From UHGV virus genome UHGV-0216968: a stretch of DNA of 9,409 bases; one strand, written 5' to 3'. A program made the translations under genes and the position numbers. This DNA comes from a virus. The notes beneath the pieces were generated by a model. That model saw only the letters and a program-made list of their open reading frames with translations. It was not told the origin of the DNA and made no database searches. Every line of letters begins with the position of its first letter. Positions within the stretch are counted from its first letter, which is position 1. Positions 340 through 8,665 of this stretch are shown piece by piece.

Positions 340-394
340 GTTGTTTTCAGTCGCCGGATTGAATCGGTAAGATAGGGTTATAACCGGATTTTTT

Positions 395-463
395 AGCTAC
401 ACGTTTAGCTATACGGTCCAGCGTGTAGCTAAAGCCGTATAGCTACGACCAGGCATATAGCTA
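395..463. repeat. five copies of the palindromic hexamer TAGCTA upstream of int
   Basis: TAGCTA at 395, 406, 426, 440 and 458. The copies are arranged as interleaved inverted repeats (TAGCTACACG / CGTGTAGCTA and TAGCTATACGG / CCGTATAGCTA), ending about 18 bp before the int start codon. Confidence 0.6.
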
Positions 464-480
464 CCGATGGGTAAAAAAAC

Positions 481-2051: not shown

Positions 2052-2056
2052 TCACA

Positions 2057-2086
2057 ATAGCGGCCCTTTGCGGTCGCTATTTTTTT
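2057..2086 (+). terminator. rho-independent terminator
   Basis: Stem ATAGCGGCC (2057-2065) / GGTCGCTAT (2072-2080) with one G-U wobble, then T6 (2081-2086). Confidence 0.6.
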
Positions 2087-2221: not shown

Positions 2222-2428
2222 GTGGAAACAATCAGAAAAATACTTACCCGTCAGGAAGTAAAAAATATTCTGCGCATCAAGGCAGACAGTTCGCTACAGG
2301 ACATGATCAACGCCGGAAAATTCCCGAAAGGCTTCAAAATCGGTCTGCGTCGTGTTGGCTGGTATGAAGATGAAGTGCTGGCCTGGCTGAAAGAGCGCGA
2401 GGAAGAAGCGCGCGGAACGGCTGCGTAA
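2222..2428 (+). CDS. alpA: AlpA-family (MerR-like HTH) regulator/excisionase-like protein, 68 aa
   Basis: GTG start at 2222 with GAGG at 2208-2211. Translation METIRKILTRQEVKNILRIKADSSLQDMINAGKFPKGFKIGLRRVGWYEDEVLAWL has the characteristic AlpA pattern (R-VGW-E-EV-AWL). Position directly after int is typical for Gram-negative PICI/P4-like islands. Confidence 0.85.
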   Translation: METIRKILTRQEVKNILRIKADSSLQDMINAGKFPKGFKIGLRRVGWYEDEVLAWLKEREEEARGTAA

Positions 2429-2578
2429 TGGTGTGAGGCGTAACGCGATGAACATAACAAAAAGCGCCCCGTTGCCGGAGCGCCCTTGCGAACAATTAAC
2501 CTGCTGCGAAAAAAATGGATCAGTGCAGGGGAATTATATCAACCGTGTGGCGAAGCGCCACAATTGCCGGATAACGGG

Positions 2579-2607
2579 CAAAACAAAGGCGACCGGGGGC
2601 GGTCGCC
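2579..2607 (-). terminator. rho-independent terminator on the minus strand
   Basis: Perfect 8-bp inverted repeat GGCGACCG-ggg-CGGTCGCC (2588-2607). On the minus strand it is followed by UUUGUUUUG (plus-strand 2579-2587). Lies about 68 bp downstream of the minus-strand small ORF. Confidence 0.45.
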
Positions 2608-2674
2608 AATGGATATACACTAAACTTGAACGCATCACCAACAATGCCACATTTGCGGCTGGTGGGCAATGTGA

Positions 2675-2854
2675 TCAGTCAGATTTGGTTCGTTCCAAGG
2701 TTTGCAACGAGAGCTTTTTCCTGTGCTCTTTAAGGAATTTCTCAAGAGCAAACGAACAAGGTGCGAATCTTTCTGATTCATGTTCATGCGCTATATTTTT
2801 GCGTCGTCTCTTACGAGTTGGCGATGGTGTTTTGGTTGATTCTGTGTCGCTCAT
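2675..2854 (-). CDS. hypothetical small basic protein, 59 aa (MSDTESTKTPSPTRKRRRKNIAHEHESERFAPCSFALEKFLKEHRKKLSLQTLERTKSD)
   Basis: Hand-translated minus-strand ORF, below the size cut-off of the supplied ORF track. ATG at 2854-2852 with AGGA 7 nt upstream, TGA at 2677-2675. Sits 57 bp downstream of the RHH gene on the same strand and before a minus-strand terminator. No family recognised. Confidence 0.3.
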   Translation of the reverse strand: MSDTESTKTPSPTRKRRRKNIAHEHESERFAPCSFALEKFLKEHRKKLSLQTLERTKSD

Positions 2855-2911
2855 GGTGCTGTCCTGTAAAGCAATGCGCCTGCGTTCCTCAAACTATGGC
2901 GCTGATAGTGG

Positions 2912-3217
2912 CTATTCCTGCTCTTTGACCTTGCGTCGCTGGAGTTCTTCACGCGCGACGGTGACGAGTTGCCCGATCTCCTCGGCGGCTTTGACTCCGA
3001 TTTTTTCCACCTGCGCTAGGGCATCGAGCGAAGAAACCAGGAGGTTTTCTCCGCTTCCTTCTGCCTGGCGGCGGGCGATTTCACCGCGCATGGCGGTTAC
3101 TATGAATCCGGCGTTGCTTTCACCGTCCAGTTTTACGGATTCCATGCCTTCAATAACATCATGCGGGATCCGAGCTGTCAGTGATTGTGATTTTGCGTTT
3201 TTTGAACCTGTAGCCAT
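2912..3217 (-). CDS. ribbon-helix-helix-type DNA-binding protein, candidate island regulator, 101 aa
   Basis: ATG at 3217-3215 with GAGAGG about 7 nt upstream. The ORF-track start at 3232 is a TTG that contains this Shine-Dalgarno. N-terminal SLTARIPHDVIEGMESVKL fits the strand-helix pattern of Arc/CopG/MetJ RHH domains. Transcribed divergently from the downstream operon. Confidence 0.6.
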   Translation of the reverse strand: MATGSKNAKSQSLTARIPHDVIEGMESVKLDGESNAGFIVTAMRGEIARRQAEGSGENLLVSSLDALAQVEKIGVKAAEEIGQLVTVAREELQRRKVKEQE

Positions 3218-3238
3218 CTGTAATCCTCTCAATGAAAG

Positions 3239-3315
3239 TGTAAGACAATATACACATAAAAAGTCTTACATAAAAGCATTGACATGTAAGCCACCTATAA
3301 ATAAAGTTACTTACA
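3239..3315. promoter_or_regulatory. divergent promoter/operator region
   Basis: Rightward promoter TTGACA (3279-3284), 17 bp, TAAAGT (3302-3307). Leftward -10 candidate TATATT on the minus strand (3247-3252). Four copies of TGTAAG/CTTACA (3239-3244, 3265-3270, 3285-3290, 3310-3315) including the inverted repeat TGTAAGAC (3239-3246) / GTCTTACA (3263-3270). Hairpin CACCTTG-ttaatg-CAAGGTG at 3314-3333 in the rightward leader. Confidence 0.45.
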
Positions 3316-3413
3316 CCTTGTTAATGCAAGGTGCAGAAACGACGAAACCCCGCACTGTAGGAGCAGTAACGGGGCTTCTAACCACCAACGATAGCAAGAT
3401 TATCGAGGTAGCT

Positions 3414-3620
3414 ATGTTAAATCATACCACACACCCGCAAGGGCGGGACTCGCACAACCTGAATAAATACATCTGGCGTTTTATCGCCCTGAGCACGGCA
3501 CAACCGCGCGTGATTCACATCGTGGCCACCAGCGAACAGGAAGCCCGTCAACAATCACCGGCTGGCTGCGTGATGGTATTCGCCGCCCGTATTCGTCAGG
3601 AGGTGCACCATGTGCAATAA
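3414..3620 (+). CDS. hypothetical small protein, 68 aa
   Basis: ATG at 3414 with GAGG at 3405-3408. It is the C-terminal part of the implausible 395-aa track ORF. First gene after the rightward promoter and its stop overlaps the next start. Product unknown. Confidence 0.4.
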   Translation: MLNHTTHPQGRDSHNLNKYIWRFIALSTAQPRVIHIVATSEQEARQQSPAGCVMVFAARIRQEVHHVQ

Positions 3621-4071: not shown

Positions 4072-4371
4072 ATGAAACAGAAAATTTCTGGCTTTACTGC
4101 CAGCGGCCTCCCTCGGCCTGAAATCTGCCCCGGCGATATTTACCGGGATAAATACGGCAGCACGGTAATGATTAAAGGTGTTGCCGGACGGTGCGTTACT
4201 TACCGCCGTGAAGGTTATGAATATGACTGCGTGATGCCTGTTTATCAGTTCCGGCGTGATTTTTCTCTGGTACAGAACGCAACACGCGGTAAGCCCACCA
4301 GTTGGGAAAAAGCACGGGAAAATATTAAGAAAATAAAAAGCATGCTCAGCGCATCCAGAGGTAAAAAATGA
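4072..4371 (+). CDS. hypothetical protein, 99 aa
   Basis: ATG at 4072. Its stop overlaps the start of the replication gene (ATGA at 4368-4371). Basic C-terminus. No recognisable family. Confidence 0.5.
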   Translation: MKQKISGFTASGLPRPEICPGDIYRDKYGSTVMIKGVAGRCVTYRREGYEYDCVMPVYQFRRDFSLVQNATRGKPTSWEKARENIKKIKSMLSASRGKK

Positions 4372-5774
4372 AACTGGCACCGAACGTAAAACTGTTACCG
4401 AAAGATAAACACACTGAGGCGGTTATTTTTGCGGGTGATAATGCTCACTCCTTTGCAGAACATTACATGATTGCACAGGCCAAAAAAGCAGGCGATCCCA
4501 TCCCTCCGGTTTACCTGGGCCGTTATCAGTTAAGCGAACTGGACAATTTACAGATTGTTGATGAAGGACGATACAGAGCAAAGGTCATACGCGCCGGAAA
4601 CCTGGACGATATGCAGATGCTGACCATTGCCACCAAACTGGCGATCGCAGGTGTCCGGGAAGCGCGGTTACTTTCAGAGAATTTCGAACTACTGGAAGAC
4701 TGGAGCGAGCAACTACCGCGCCTTAAAGAAACCTGGGAACGTGGGGAAAGCCTGGTCATGAATGGTGGAAAGCGAAAAATCACACTTCCCATCTCATGGG
4801 GTTCTGAGGGATTCGACGCGCAGCAAAGCTACGTAATTAAGGGGCTTATTCCGGCTGAATCATTATGCAGCACCTACGGGGCCAGCGGCTCTTATAAATC
4901 GTTCCTGGCTATTTCCTGGTCGTGCCATGTTGCCACAGGTATGGCATGGGGAGGCCGCAGGGTCAGTAAGGGCGCGGTTATCTATATAGCTGGTGAAGGC
5001 AGCATGGGCGTAAAACGCCGCGTTAAGGCGTGGGAGATAACCCACGACAAGGTGGTTACAGATTTGTGCATCATTAACGCGCCTGTTTTCCCTGCATCGC
5101 CTGACTATGTGGAGCAGGTTATCAGAACTGCCGGACTTGTTAAGAGCAGAACGGGCGAAAATGTGCGGCTGATTGTGATAGACACGCTGGCCCGTTGCTT
5201 TGGTGGGAATGATGAAAATGATTCCCGTGATATGGGCGCATTTATCCAGGGGTGTGACGCGATAAAGCAGGCCACAGGGGCCACGGTGCTGGTGGTTCAC
5301 CATTCCGGCAAGGATGAAACAAAGGGGGCGCGTGGTTCCAGCGCATTCCGTGCCGCACTGGATGCAGAGTACCGAATCAGCCGGGAAAATTCAGACGTTA
5401 CAGCACTGGTGGCGGCGTGTACGAAGATGAAGGACGCAGAGGAGCCAAAAGAAAGCGCATACGACCTTAAAAGCGTGGAGGTGTTTACCGATACAGATGG
5501 CGAAGAGATTGTGTCCATGGTGGTGATTGACGTTCCCCGCGCCCCTGCTGAACTGGAACGCATCGAGGAGGCCGGGAACAAGACGGAAAATCACACGGCT
5601 TTATGGGGTTGTATCCGGTCACGTATACAGCATGGTGATAAATGCACGATCCCGCTGCTACGTGATGACATGAAAAAGCTGGGATATGACACAAAACACC
5701 TTAAACGATGGTTAGCCAAACTGGAAAAAGACGGCGTGATTTGCGTCGATGGGGATGATGTTCACCCACTGTAA
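4368..5774 (+). CDS. replication protein: RecA-superfamily RepA/DnaB-like ATPase, 468 aa
   Basis: ATG at 4368 with AGAGG at 4357-4361. Contains a P-loop-like YGASGSYKS, Walker B-like RLIVIDTL and a VLVVHHSGKD motif characteristic of RepA-type replicative helicases. The C-terminal ~60 aa look like a small DNA-binding domain. Iterons follow immediately downstream. Confidence 0.85.
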   Translation: MKLAPNVKLLPKDKHTEAVIFAGDNAHSFAEHYMIAQAKKAGDPIPPVYLGRYQLSELDNLQIVDEGRYRAKVIRAGNLDDMQMLTIATKLAIAGVREARLLSENFELLEDWSEQLPRLKETWERGESLVMNGGKRKITLPISWGSEGFDAQQSYVIKGLIPAESLCSTYGASGSYKSFLAISWSCHVATGMAWGGRRVSKGAVIYIAGEGSMGVKRRVKAWEITHDKVVTDLCIINAPVFPASPDYVEQVIRTAGLVKSRTGENVRLIVIDTLARCFGGNDENDSRDMGAFIQGCDAIKQATGATVLVVHHSGKDETKGARGSSAFRAALDAEYRISRENSDVTALVAACTKMKDAEEPKESAYDLKSVEVFTDTDGEEIVSMVVIDVPRAPAELERIEEAGNKTENHTALWGCIRSRIQHGDKCTIPLLRDDMKKLGYDTKHLKRWLAKLEKDGVICVDGDDVHPL

Positions 5775-6919: not shown

Positions 6920-7960
6920 ATGAGTGATTTATATTCGCCAGCTATGTTAATACAGGTTGTTAATGCCGAAGATATTCAATGGCAGATTAATTCTTTATTT
7001 ATAAACCTTTTTTTTAAGCGAGTCGTTACATTTGAGACGCGGGATATTGCGCTTGATATTATTGACGATCCAGACATCCCGATGGCTGCATTTTGTTCCC
7101 CTATGGTTGGTAGCAAAGTCTCACGCGATGAAGGCTACGAATCGAAAGTAATTCGTCCTGGCTACATGAAGCCAAAAAGTAGTATCGATCCAAATAAAAT
7201 AGCCGTTCGTCAACCAGGCGTATCACCGGAACAATTCAATGCATATTCATCACGCAGTTTCAAAATAAAGCGAGCGTTAGTAAGACAAGCGCAGGCAATT
7301 CGTGCGCGTATTGAGTGGCTTGCTGTTCAGGCGGTTACAACGGGGAAAAATATCATTGAAGGCGATGGAATTGAACGTTATGAACTGGACTGGAATATAA
7401 AACCACAAAATATTATCACGCAGTCCGGCGGTACGGAGTGGAGCGGTAGAGATTTATCAACATTTGATCCAAACGATGACATCGAAGAGTACGCAGAAAT
7501 CAGCGAAGGTACTACAAATATCATCGTAATGGGCCGCAACGTATGGAAAAAATACCGCGCCTTTAAAGCAGTAAAAGATTGCCTTGATACTCGACGGGGA
7601 TCTAATTCCGTTCTTGAAACGGCCCTGAAAAATCTTGGGGATTCTGTAAGCTTCAAGGGTTACGTTGGCGATGTTGCTATTGTGGTATATAGCGGACGTT
7701 ATACCGACGAGGACGGAACTGAAAGATATTTCCTTGATCCTGATTTGATGGTGCTTGGCAACACATCATTACAGGGCATCGTTGCCTACGGTGGCATTCA
7801 GGATCCTGAGTTAATCAGAATGGGGCTTACTAAAGCCGAACTTGCGCCGAAAAATTACATCGTACCAGGTGATCCGGCTATTGAGTACGTACAAACGCAC
7901 TCTGCACCACAGCCAATACCGGCCCGCATCAATCGTTTTGTTACCGTTCGCATTGGTTAA
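6920..7960 (+). CDS. major capsid protein, lambda gpE family, 346 aa
   Basis: AGAGG at 6911-6915 precedes the ATG. Blocks shared with lambda gpE as I recall it: NIITQSGGTEWSGRD, FDPNDDIEEYA, NIIVMG, FKAVKDCLDTRRGSNSVLETA, GDVAIVVYSG, MVLGNT, GDPA. Length is close to lambda E (341 aa). Confidence 0.92.
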   Translation: MSDLYSPAMLIQVVNAEDIQWQINSLFINLFFKRVVTFETRDIALDIIDDPDIPMAAFCSPMVGSKVSRDEGYESKVIRPGYMKPKSSIDPNKIAVRQPGVSPEQFNAYSSRSFKIKRALVRQAQAIRARIEWLAVQAVTTGKNIIEGDGIERYELDWNIKPQNIITQSGGTEWSGRDLSTFDPNDDIEEYAEISEGTTNIIVMGRNVWKKYRAFKAVKDCLDTRRGSNSVLETALKNLGDSVSFKGYVGDVAIVVYSGRYTDEDGTERYFLDPDLMVLGNTSLQGIVAYGGIQDPELIRMGLTKAELAPKNYIVPGDPAIEYVQTHSAPQPIPARINRFVTVRIG

Positions 7961-8320: not shown

Positions 8321-8665
8321 ATGATTGAAAGAGATAGTCAGCTACGAGAGCTATTAGATATCGATGATAAAATGCGCTTAAGCGAGCGTCTTGTCGATAT
8401 GGATCAGGTAGTGGAGCTTACAACCCTTAGCCGTCGCACATTGCTAAACCTTGAGGCTCGCGGAGAGTTCCCCGAACGCGTACAGGTTACGAAAGGCCGC
8501 AAGGCATGGTATTTAAGCGAAGTTGTTGCGTGGATTAACAACATTCCGCGCGCATCAAATTATTGCCTTGTTCCCACCCCCGAAAAACCTGATGCGGCGT
8601 TATGCCTCAAGATTGAACGCGCCAGGCGTAATGCCCTGAAAGGGCGCAATAAGTTGATTGGTTGA
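8321..8665 (+). CDS. second AlpA/excisionase-like HTH protein, 114 aa
   Basis: GAGGT at 8311-8315 precedes the ATG. Central region VVELTTLSRRTLLNLEARGEFPERVQVTKGRKAWYLSEVVAWI is a MerR/AlpA-type HTH. Stop lies 26 bp before the cosQ-like sequence. Confidence 0.7.
   Translation: MIERDSQLRELLDIDDKMRLSERLVDMDQVVELTTLSRRTLLNLEARGEFPERVQVTKGRKAWYLSEVVAWINNIPRASNYCLVPTPEKPDAALCLKIERARRNALKGRNKLIG

What the first reader, a model, noticed from the sequence alone, without database searches (positions are those of the whole stretch)
2579..3340. Divergently transcribed RHH gene plus small basic ORF with operator-like repeats: candidate repressor switch
A minus-strand two-gene unit (RHH protein at 2912-3217, a 59-aa basic ORF at 2675-2854 with a good Shine-Dalgarno, then a minus-strand terminator at 2579-2607) faces the rightward operon across about 200 bp. 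That intergenic region contains overlapping promoters and four TGTAAG/CTTACA hexamers. The layout resembles a repressor/operator switch. This is notable because Gram-negative islands with the int-alpA layout are generally described as being controlled by AlpA activation rather than by a master repressor.
Basis: partly seen in the sequence, partly recalled or inferred. Interest (0 to 1): 0.55.

Follow-up and report, generated by a model that had tools for sequence, protein, structure and literature searches.

The report
Candidate repressor switch in phage satellite
A small DNA-binding protein gene and four matching repeats sit between the two halves of an E. coli phage-satellite island, and comparison with about 100 related islands indicates they form a repressor/operator switch in a class of islands for which no repressor has been described.

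Summary
The window is an EcCICFT073-type phage-inducible chromosomal island (PICI).

- **Protein:** the minus-strand 101-aa gene (2912-3217) is a YlcI/YnfO-family protein. It has a predicted ribbon-helix-helix (RHH) N-terminal domain and a long C-terminal helix.
- **Repeats:** the four TGTAAG/CTTACA hexamers are the cores of four 8-9-bp sub-sites. They lie over a strong rightward promoter (P_R) and a weaker leftward one (P_L).
- **Cross-locus evidence:** in 103 of 104 related loci, four sub-sites occupy the same offsets. Their sequence changes one-to-one with residues 12-15 of the predicted DNA-reading strand.
- **What does not track the repeats:** the protein's C-terminus, the leader, the icd-like gene, AlpA, the integrase and the replicase all reassort independently.
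- **Cassette:** the N-terminal domain plus operators (3080-3330) behaves as an exchangeable specificity cassette.
- **Small ORF:** the 59-aa ORF is a real gene (dN/dS 0.15-0.4) but is absent outside E. coli-type islands.
- **Literature:** the published AlpA reporter constructs stopped short of this module, so they never tested it.

Best reading: an autoregulated RHH repressor of the replication operon. This is a known kind of switch in a context where a repressor was called "unclear". Binding and repression are inferred, not shown.

The parts
2912..3217 (-). YlcI/YnfO-family gene, 101 aa. It has an RHH-type N-terminal domain (residues ~9-54) and a long C-terminal helix (59-100).
3080..3330 (.). 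Exchangeable specificity cassette: codons ~1-46 of the RHH gene plus all four sub-sites and both promoters.
   Evidence: Identity to L017 is ~50% here, against 92-95% at 2920-3079 and 100% from 3600. The strand motif and the operator core pair 1:1.
3238..3246 (+). Sub-site 1, GTGTAAGAC. It lies over the predicted start of the leftward transcript.
   Evidence: The same offset (~+21 from the ATG) is occupied in 103/104 loci.
3263..3270 (-). Sub-site 2, GTCTTACA (TGTAAGAC on the minus strand). It lies in the P_L spacer and touches the P_L -35.
3285..3292 (+). Sub-site 3, TGTAAGCC. It directly abuts the P_R -35, inside the spacer.
3308..3316 (-). Sub-site 4, TACTTACAC (GTGTAAGTA on the minus strand). 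It begins directly after the P_R -10 and covers the predicted +1.
3279..3307 (+). P_R: TTGACA, 17 nt, TAAAGT. It is the promoter of the icd-like->DUF4222->replicase->SSB operon.
   Evidence: 10 of 12. There is no other + strand promoter or terminator up to 6900.
3247..3274 (-). P_L candidate: -35 TTTATG (3274-3269), 16 nt, -10 TATATT (3252-3247). The -10 sits in a block, (C)A(N)TATACACA, that is constant across operator classes.
2675..2854 (-). Second gene of the leftward unit: a 59-aa basic protein with the invariant core E..ERFAPC.F.LEKFLKE.
   Evidence: Intact in 68/96 loci at the same offset. dN/dS 0.15-0.4. phrog_21027 E=5e-15. Alignment A3.
2578..2607 (-). Intrinsic terminator of the leftward unit.
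2460..2487 (-). Second minus-strand terminator, 32 nt from the alpA stop codon.
3344..3384 (+). Conserved leader hairpin (3344-3378) followed by the invariant UCUAACCA. Function unknown.
   Evidence: Covariation: 5 of 13 pairs change on both sides, and 0/500 shuffles reach the observed score. No Rfam match.
3414..3620 (+). Icd-like gene, the first gene of the rightward operon.
   Evidence: NCBIfam NF033153 E=5.6e-20.
2222..2428 (+). alpA, convergent on the leftward unit.
   Evidence: Pfam PF05930. Convergent in 81/82 loci.

Best explanation
The 101-aa gene encodes a sequence-specific ribbon-helix-helix repressor.

**Proposed mechanism**
- Dimers of its N-terminal domain each read one of four 8-9-bp sub-sites, spaced about 24 bp apart in the 196-bp divergent region.
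- Two sub-sites flank the -10 of P_R: one in the spacer next to the -35 and one over +1. Two more lie over the protein's own P_L.
- Occupancy would therefore shut off the icd-like->replicase->SSB operon and autoregulate the repressor.
- The long C-terminal helix probably joins dimers into a higher-order complex, as in Mnt.
- Residues 12-15 of the strand, together with the operators, form a cassette that is swapped as a unit between islands and sets the specificity.
- The 59-aa gene is a co-transcribed accessory partner that is not essential to the switch.

**What is shown and what is inferred**
- Shown: the anatomy, the family assignment, the co-variation and the selection on the small ORF.
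- Inferred: DNA binding, repression, oligomeric state, and how AlpA overrides the switch.
For: - **Operators:** four sub-sites lie at offsets ~21/46/67/91 in 103 of 104 loci. Their sequences are class-specific and pair 1:1 with the strand motif.
- **Variability:** residues 12-15 are the most variable stretch of the protein (1.99 bits) and sit between invariant S10, R16 and P18.
- **Dissociation from other genes:** one C-terminal class occurs with 5 operator classes, leader classes with up to 3, and first-gene classes with up to 4. L017 has an Int 100% and an AlpA 97% identical to the window's but different operators. L018 has L017's operators with an unrelated AlpA and Int.
- **Replicase:** identical operators occur with an AAA_25 replicase (window) and a DUF927 replicase (STEC379).
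- **Cassette boundaries:** 3080-3330.
- **Operon:** P_R is the only evident promoter of the replication operon.
Against: - There is no direct evidence of binding or repression.
- Pfam gives no hit for the window protein itself, and Foldseek finds nothing.
- The strand is not called as a strand in the monomer model.
- The operators and the N-terminal codons are physically adjacent, so simple linkage would also keep them together.
- AlpA over-expression alone induces the prototype island, so the repressor cannot be an insurmountable lock.
- The prototype EcCICFT073 carries a 59-aa version lacking the C-terminal helix.
- The sub-site spacing of ~24 bp (about 2.3 turns) is unlike the 11-bp spacing of Arc/Mnt half-sites.
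Confidence: 0.65

Rival explanations
1. The protein does bind the repeats, but it is only a local autoregulator or buffer. For example, it might keep basal icd-like expression low or insulate against read-through. The on/off decision of the island would rest entirely with AlpA.
For: - AlpA is required for induction and transfer, and is sufficient to induce excision and replication, in EcCICFT073.
- The prototype's gene is truncated to the RHH domain, yet that island is still quiescent and inducible.
Against: - P_R is a near-consensus promoter and the only one seen for the replication operon.
- The sub-sites flank its -10 and cover +1.
- The AlpA reporter constructs never included this region, so AlpA acting alone has not been shown for P_R.
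Confidence: 0.2
2. The two-gene leftward unit is a type II toxin-antitoxin pair, with an RHH antitoxin and a small basic toxin, that stabilises the island. The repeats would be its autoregulatory operator.
For: - The best structural matches are RHH antitoxins.
- The gene order is antitoxin-like first, followed by a small partner.
- The operator lies over the unit's own promoter.
Against: - The partner is only 59 aa and has no Pfam or PADLOC match.
- It has its own SD after a 57-nt gap.
- It is missing in 28 of 96 loci, including every non-E. coli genus, while the RHH gene and operators persist.
- Two of the four sub-sites sit on P_R, not on the unit's own promoter.
Confidence: 0.08
3. The repeats are read by some other factor, such as AlpA, the integrase, Icd-like, replicase iterons or a host protein, and the RHH gene is merely adjacent to them.
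For: - Adjacency alone would produce co-inheritance.
- PHROGs labels Icd-like proteins 'transcriptional repressor'.
Against: - AlpA, Int, Icd-like, the leader and the replicase type all reassort against the operator class.
- The PHROG label probably traces to the P4 cI ORF annotation, although the window's Icd-like protein is only weakly similar to that ORF (E=0.061).
- A host factor would not explain class-specific repeat sequences.
Confidence: 0.05
4. The repeats are a chance cluster.
For: A cluster of four copies of some hexamer within 80 bp occurs in ~5% of shuffles.
Against: The same four-site layout, with different sequences, recurs in 103 of 104 loci from at least eight genera.
Confidence: 0.01

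Closest known systems
Mnt and Arc repressors of the phage P22 immI region
   Same: - These are small RHH repressors acting at divergent promoters.
- Mnt pairs an RHH domain with a C-terminal helical oligomerisation domain and regulates its own promoter while repressing the opposing one (own knowledge; sequences verified against 1arq and 1mnt).
- The strand and helix A align in register with Arc.
   Different: - Sequence similarity is marginal (E=0.0077 to Arc, 0.12 to Mnt).
- There are four sub-sites ~24 bp apart here, in place of two half-sites ~11 bp apart.
- Sub-site orientation differs between alleles (-> <- -> <- or -> -> <- <-).
Omega repressor of plasmid pSM19035 (RHH binding 7-bp heptads)
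   Same: One RHH dimer binds per short asymmetric repeat, and the repeats can be direct or inverted, as the allele-dependent orientation here suggests (own knowledge).
   Different: Omega heptads are contiguous, whereas here the sub-sites are ~24 bp apart. No sequence relationship was tested.
Stl/Rpr master repressors of Gram-positive PICIs (SaPIs)
   Same: The gene has the same position in the island map: divergent from the replication operon and controlling it.
   Different: - Stl/Rpr genes are transcribed in the same direction as int, whereas this gene runs opposite to int.
- To my knowledge Stl/Rpr are not RHH proteins, and they are relieved by helper-phage protein binding.
- No inducer is known here, and AlpA is an extra layer.
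YlcI (DLP12) and YnfO (Qin) of E. coli K-12; NCBIfam NF041551 / Pfam DUF3950
   Same: They belong to the same N-terminal domain family. K-12 ylcI also lies divergent from a neighbouring operon, nohD.
   Different: - The K-12 proteins are short and uncharacterised.
- The window protein has an extra 45-residue C-terminal helix.
- The window protein does not reach Pfam DUF3950 at E<=0.1.
P4 CI / P1 c4 RNA immunity next to icd
   Same: The genomic setting is the same: an icd-like gene behind a structured leader in a satellite early operon.
   Different: - The window has no C4, isrK or c4-a1b1 match, while P4 has all three.
- Here a protein/operator module occupies the control region.
RHH antitoxins of type II TA systems (Rv0298, TacA1, MazE6/7)
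   Same: These are the best structural matches for the N-terminal domain, and the architecture is an RHH domain plus a C-terminal extension.
   Different: No recognisable toxin is present, the partner gene is dispensable across genera, and the operators sit on a foreign promoter.

Membership tests
YlcI/YnfO family (NCBIfam NF041551) | Score above the curated cut-off of the family HMM | tested here: met
   71.4 bits against a cut-off of 30; E=4.7e-20; residues 9-50.
Ribbon-helix-helix superfamily | N-terminal strand followed by two helices, with a G-x-S/T/N turn before helix 2 | tested here: met
   - The AF2 model is extended to residue 18, then H19-28 and H35-54.
- G32-E-S-N35 precedes helix 2.
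Ribbon-helix-helix superfamily | Significant match to a curated RHH sequence profile | tested here: inconclusive
   - No Pfam hit for the window protein at E<=0.1.
- hhalign to Arc E=0.0077.
- Only 1-2 remote members each hit RHH_1, RHH_5, CopG_antitoxin, TacA1 or PSK_trans_fac, at E 1e-3 to 5e-3.
Ribbon-helix-helix superfamily | Dimer with an intersubunit two-stranded sheet inserted in the major groove | not testable with these tools
   Only monomer prediction is available, and the strand is not called by DSSP in the monomer.
Arc/Mnt family | Sequence-level homology to Arc or Mnt | tested here: not met
   Arc and Mnt were not found by phmmer or hmmsearch against the PDB. hhalign gives E=0.0077 (Arc) and 0.12 (Mnt).
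Repressor/operator pair | Operator sequence co-varies with the DNA-reading residues and with nothing else | tested here: met
   The pairing is 1:1 over 13 strand motifs in 103 loci, while the C-terminus, leader, icd-like gene, AlpA, Int and replicase all reassort.
Repressor/operator pair | Protein binds the sites and lowers transcription | not testable with these tools
   This needs EMSA or footprinting and reporter assays.
Type II toxin-antitoxin system | Adjacent gene of a recognisable toxin family, obligately co-inherited | tested here: not met
   There is no Pfam, NCBIfam or PADLOC match for the 59-aa protein, and it is absent in 28/96 loci.
P4/P1-type RNA immunity (C4/CI RNA with targets) | Match to Rfam C4, c4-a1b1 or isrK | tested here: not met
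   The window has none at E<=1, and the leader has none at E<=10. The positive control P4 gives C4 at 74.9 bits, isrK at 60.8 and c4-a1b1 at 44.1.
Gram-negative PICI (EcCICFT073 type) | int, alpA, a replication module and phage-packaging genes, with no lysis or tail genes, at a specific attachment site | tested here: met
   - The window has tRNA-Pro, int, alpA, an AAA_25 replicase, SSB, gpE- and gpD-like capsid proteins and Nu1.
- Its layout is syntenic with the island in CFT073.
- The window ends before the right end of the island.

The most novel reading that the evidence does not exclude
YlcI-like RHH proteins are the missing immunity repressors of Gram-negative PICIs. Their swappable strand-plus-operator cassettes would define immunity groups among co-resident satellites. 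AlpA would induce an island not by activating P_R but by driving convergent, terminator-resistant transcription from P_alpA across the repressor gene. That would silence the repressor and read into the replication operon.
Probability: 0.2. Interest if true: 0.8.

Novelty: new member of a known kind. Interest (0 to 1): 0.6.

Why it matters
- **An open question becomes testable.** Since 2018 Gram-negative PICIs have been described as lacking a known master repressor and as being switched on by AlpA. How they stay silent, and what AlpA acts on, is still open. This module is present in about a third of complete E. coli genomes in some form and in several other genera. It offers a concrete, testable repressor and operator, and the natural allelic series amounts to a ready-made specificity-swap experiment.
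- **A gap in the published work.** The published AlpA reporters stopped just short of this region.
- **Practical uses.** PICIs are being engineered as delivery vehicles, so a defined set of orthogonal repressor/operator pairs would be useful. It would also give a function to the uncharacterised YlcI/YnfO (DUF3950) family.

Tried and rejected
- **Pfam** on both target proteins: no hit.
- **PDB sequence searches** with the protein and with the family profile: no RHH hit. The only result was a marginal helix-hairpin-helix match to Hef.
- **Foldseek** against the PDB and viral structures: nothing significant. AFDB was not available.
- **tblastn** of the N-terminal domain against 50,697 phage genomes: no match.
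- **PADLOC:** nothing for either protein.
- **Rfam:** no C4/CI-type RNA, so P4-type RNA immunity is rejected for this island.
- **Extra operator copies** elsewhere in the window, for example near alpA or the late genes: none beyond chance.
- **Iteron (origin) reading of the repeats:** rejected, because identical repeats occur with different replicase families.
rejected by L017 and L018.
- **Terminator asymmetry as a test of AlpA read-through:** inconclusive, at 76 against 22.
- **Literature:** eight full-text searches found no paper characterising YlcI/YnfO or an RHH repressor in a satellite. Subscription-only papers could have been missed.

Full report
**Context.** The window is the left two-thirds of a phage satellite of the EcCICFT073 type.
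- It contains tRNA-Pro (195-268), an integrase (481-1722), alpA (2222-2428) and the minus-strand unit in question.
- A rightward operon follows: an icd-like gene (3414-3620), small ORFs, DUF4222, an AAA_25 replicase (4368-5774) and SSB.
- After that come lambda gpE- and gpD-like capsid genes, a second alpA-like gene and a Nu1-like small terminase.
- The 1.3 kb around the finding is 99.2% identical to an island next to yejM/tRNA-Pro in E. coli STEC379. It is about 81% identical to the corresponding part of the prototype island in CFT073. Some part of it matches 1744 of 5426 complete E. coli genomes.

**Observation check.**
- The 101-aa ORF runs 3217->2912 with a strong Shine-Dalgarno. The 59-aa ORF runs 2854->2675 with AGGA 7 nt upstream and a net charge of about +6.
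- A minus-strand terminator lies at 2607-2588 followed by a T-run, and a second one lies at 2487-2460.
- The intergenic region is 196 bp, and the four hexamers are at 3239, 3265, 3285 and 3310.
- P_R is TTGACA-17-TAAAGT (3279-3307).
- The leftward promoter is weaker: TTTATG-16-TATATT (3274-3247). It is back-to-back with P_R, not overlapping it.
- Taken alone, four copies of a hexamer within 80 bp is only marginal, since 14 of 300 shuffles reach it. The arms do extend to 8-9 bp (GTGTAAGAC / GTCTTACA).

**The protein.**
- Pfam is silent, but NCBIfam places residues 9-50 in the YlcI/YnfO family at 71.4 bits against a cut-off of 30. No paper in the library characterises that family.
- An AF2 model (pLDDT 81.6) shows an extended segment up to residue 18, helices at 19-28 and 35-54, and then one long helix at 59-100.
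- The family profile aligns with Arc in the correct register (K...R-x-P-x-D/E-V) at E=0.0077. It aligns with Mnt over the strand only.
- A search of 1.84 billion representatives finds only 74 clusters, many of them 52-66-aa proteins matching the N-terminal domain alone. A few of these weakly hit Pfam RHH families.
- I conclude the fold is RHH. Membership of the Arc/Mnt sequence family is not shown.

**The repeats are operators of this protein.** This is the central result.
- I collected 104 loci: the window, CFT073, 13 genomes of other genera, 9 E. coli contigs and 80 viral contigs.
- In 103 of them, four sub-sites lie about 21, 46, 67 and 91 nt from the start codon. A TTGACN -35 sits at about 60, and a constant TATACACA block lies between the first two sites.
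- The sub-site sequence is class-specific and pairs one-to-one with residues 10-18 of the protein:

| Strand motif | Sub-site core |
|---|---|
| SQSLTARIP | TGTAAGAC |
| SQLTTVRVP | GTGTGTTTC |
| S(K/T/R)QISIRIP | TGTGATTCA |
| SQQLNARFP | TGGTATTCA |
| SQMTTIRVP | TGTATATCAC |
| SQ(L/V/I/M)KN(I/V)R(I/V/F)P | GTGTGTA or GTGTGCA, with the middle two sites inverted |
| SQALKARVP (CFT073) | GTGGGCCACAC |

- Residues 12-15 are the most variable stretch of the protein (1.99 bits) and lie between invariant S10, R16 and P18. In the Arc register, positions 12, 14 and 16 are the base-contacting ones (own knowledge of Arc).
- Other features reassort. One C-terminal class occurs with five operator classes, leader classes with up to three, and first-gene classes with up to four.
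- L017 has an integrase 100% and an AlpA 97% identical to the window's, yet different operators and an N-terminus only 52% identical. L018 has L017's protein and operators with an unrelated AlpA and integrase.
- Identical operators occur with AAA_25 and DUF927 replicases.
- Against L017, identity is 92-95% at 2920-3079, about 50% at 3080-3330, 82% over the leader hairpin and 100% from 3600.
- The diverged block contains only the N-terminal domain and the operators.
- Adjacency alone could explain co-inheritance. It cannot explain why four copies change in concert within each class, which calls for a class-specific reader.

**Logic of the switch.**
- Sub-site 3 abuts the P_R -35 inside the spacer, and sub-site 4 begins directly after the P_R -10 and covers +1.
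- Sub-site 1 covers the predicted P_L +1, and sub-site 2 lies in the P_L spacer and touches its -35.
- No other plus-strand promoter or terminator appears before 6900, so P_R should drive the replication operon.
- Occupancy would repress both promoters. This is an inference.

**The small ORF.**
- An intact homologue starts 58 nt after the stop codon in 68 of 96 loci.
- dN/dS is 0.15-0.4 at dS up to and above 1.
- The core E..ERFAPC.F.LEKFLKE is invariant.
- Some loci carry 75-84-aa variants that share the FALE(K/D)F motif. Islands from other genera have none.
- The AF2 model is low-confidence and consists of two helices.
- It is a real but dispensable gene of unknown role.

**Relation to AlpA.**
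- The 2018 paper states that a global repressor in Gram-negative PICIs is unclear and that AlpA is an activator. It reports that AlpA is required for induction and transfer, and that over-expressing it alone induces excision and replication.
- I mapped that paper's reporter primers onto CFT073. Every construct ends at or before position 7189 of L002, upstream of the small ORF (7232-7405), the RHH gene (7463-7642) and P_R. The module was therefore never tested.
- Those data do show AlpA-dependent rightward transcription at least 486 bp past alpA.
- alpA is convergent on the leftward unit in 81 of 82 loci. The window has no plus-strand terminator between alpA and the unit.
- Read-through that silences the repressor is an attractive hypothesis. 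The terminator asymmetry across loci (76 against 22) does not settle it.

**Leader RNA.**
- A hairpin at 3344-3378, followed by the invariant UCUAACCA, is conserved with covariation. Five of 13 pairs change on both sides, 0 of 500 shuffles reach the observed score, and the slid controls collapse.
- It is not a terminator and matches no Rfam family.
- P4, used as a positive control, gives C4, isrK and c4-a1b1. This island therefore lacks P4-type RNA immunity, and the hairpin is unexplained.

**Verdict.** Mechanistically it is an ordinary kind of device, an autoregulated RHH repressor at divergent promoters. The protein family is uncharacterised, and the setting is one where no repressor has been described. 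The comparative data amount to a natural specificity-swap series. Binding, repression, stoichiometry and the link to AlpA remain to be shown.

Noticed in passing
window 3344-3384: A conserved leader hairpin followed by the invariant UCUAACCA lies between P_R and the icd-like start. It has clear covariation, no U-tract and no Rfam match. It occupies the position that the c4/CI RNAs hold in P1 and P4 but has a different architecture.
   Followed up: partly
window 3389-3408: A second small hairpin (CGAUA-N7-UAUCG) abuts the icd-like Shine-Dalgarno. Other alleles place the SD in the loop of an equivalent hairpin.
   Followed up: no
window 394-464: Five copies of the palindromic hexamer TAGCTA lie within about 70 bp, just upstream of the integrase start codon (481). 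They may be arm-type or directionality-factor sites.
   Followed up: no
L002 7463-7642 (CFT073): The prototype island EcCICFT073 carries a 59-aa version of the RHH protein. It looks like an in-frame loss of residues ~52-93, the whole C-terminal helix. Its right-hand sub-sites are direct repeats of GTGGGCCACACC.
   Followed up: partly
window 2918-3043 (residues 59-100): The family profile gives a marginal match (E=0.006) to the helix-hairpin-helix domain of Hef, centred on the invariant I73-G74. AF2, by contrast, models one continuous helix with high confidence.
   Followed up: no
window 3414-3620: The PHROGs label 'transcriptional repressor' for Icd-like proteins probably comes from the P4 'cI gene product' ORF. 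To my knowledge the real P4 immunity factor is the CI RNA. The window protein is only weakly similar to that ORF (E=0.061), so the label should not be taken as evidence of function.
   Followed up: partly
window 8321-8665: A second AlpA-family gene sits immediately upstream of the Nu1-like small terminase gene. It may regulate the packaging genes.
   Followed up: no
window 2056-2081: A strong plus-strand terminator lies between the 76-aa ORF that follows int and alpA. alpA therefore has its own promoter region at 2082-2221, although no sigma-70 consensus was detected there.
   Followed up: no
L021, L041, L044 (58 nt after the RHH gene stop): Alternative 75-84-aa proteins occupy the small-ORF position. 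They share only the (E/K)KFALEDF motif and a basic C-terminus with the window's 59-aa protein.
   Followed up: partly
L011 and L012 (Xenorhabdus vietnamensis, one contig); L044 and L045 (one IMG genome): Two copies of the module with the same or nearly the same operator class occur in one genome. Co-resident islands of one specificity class are therefore not excluded.
   Followed up: no
L106 6252-6446 (E. coli K-12 DLP12): The family namesake ylcI lies divergent from nohD, the Nu1 homologue, across a 388-bp gap. The short phage-borne members may therefore regulate packaging genes.
   Followed up: no
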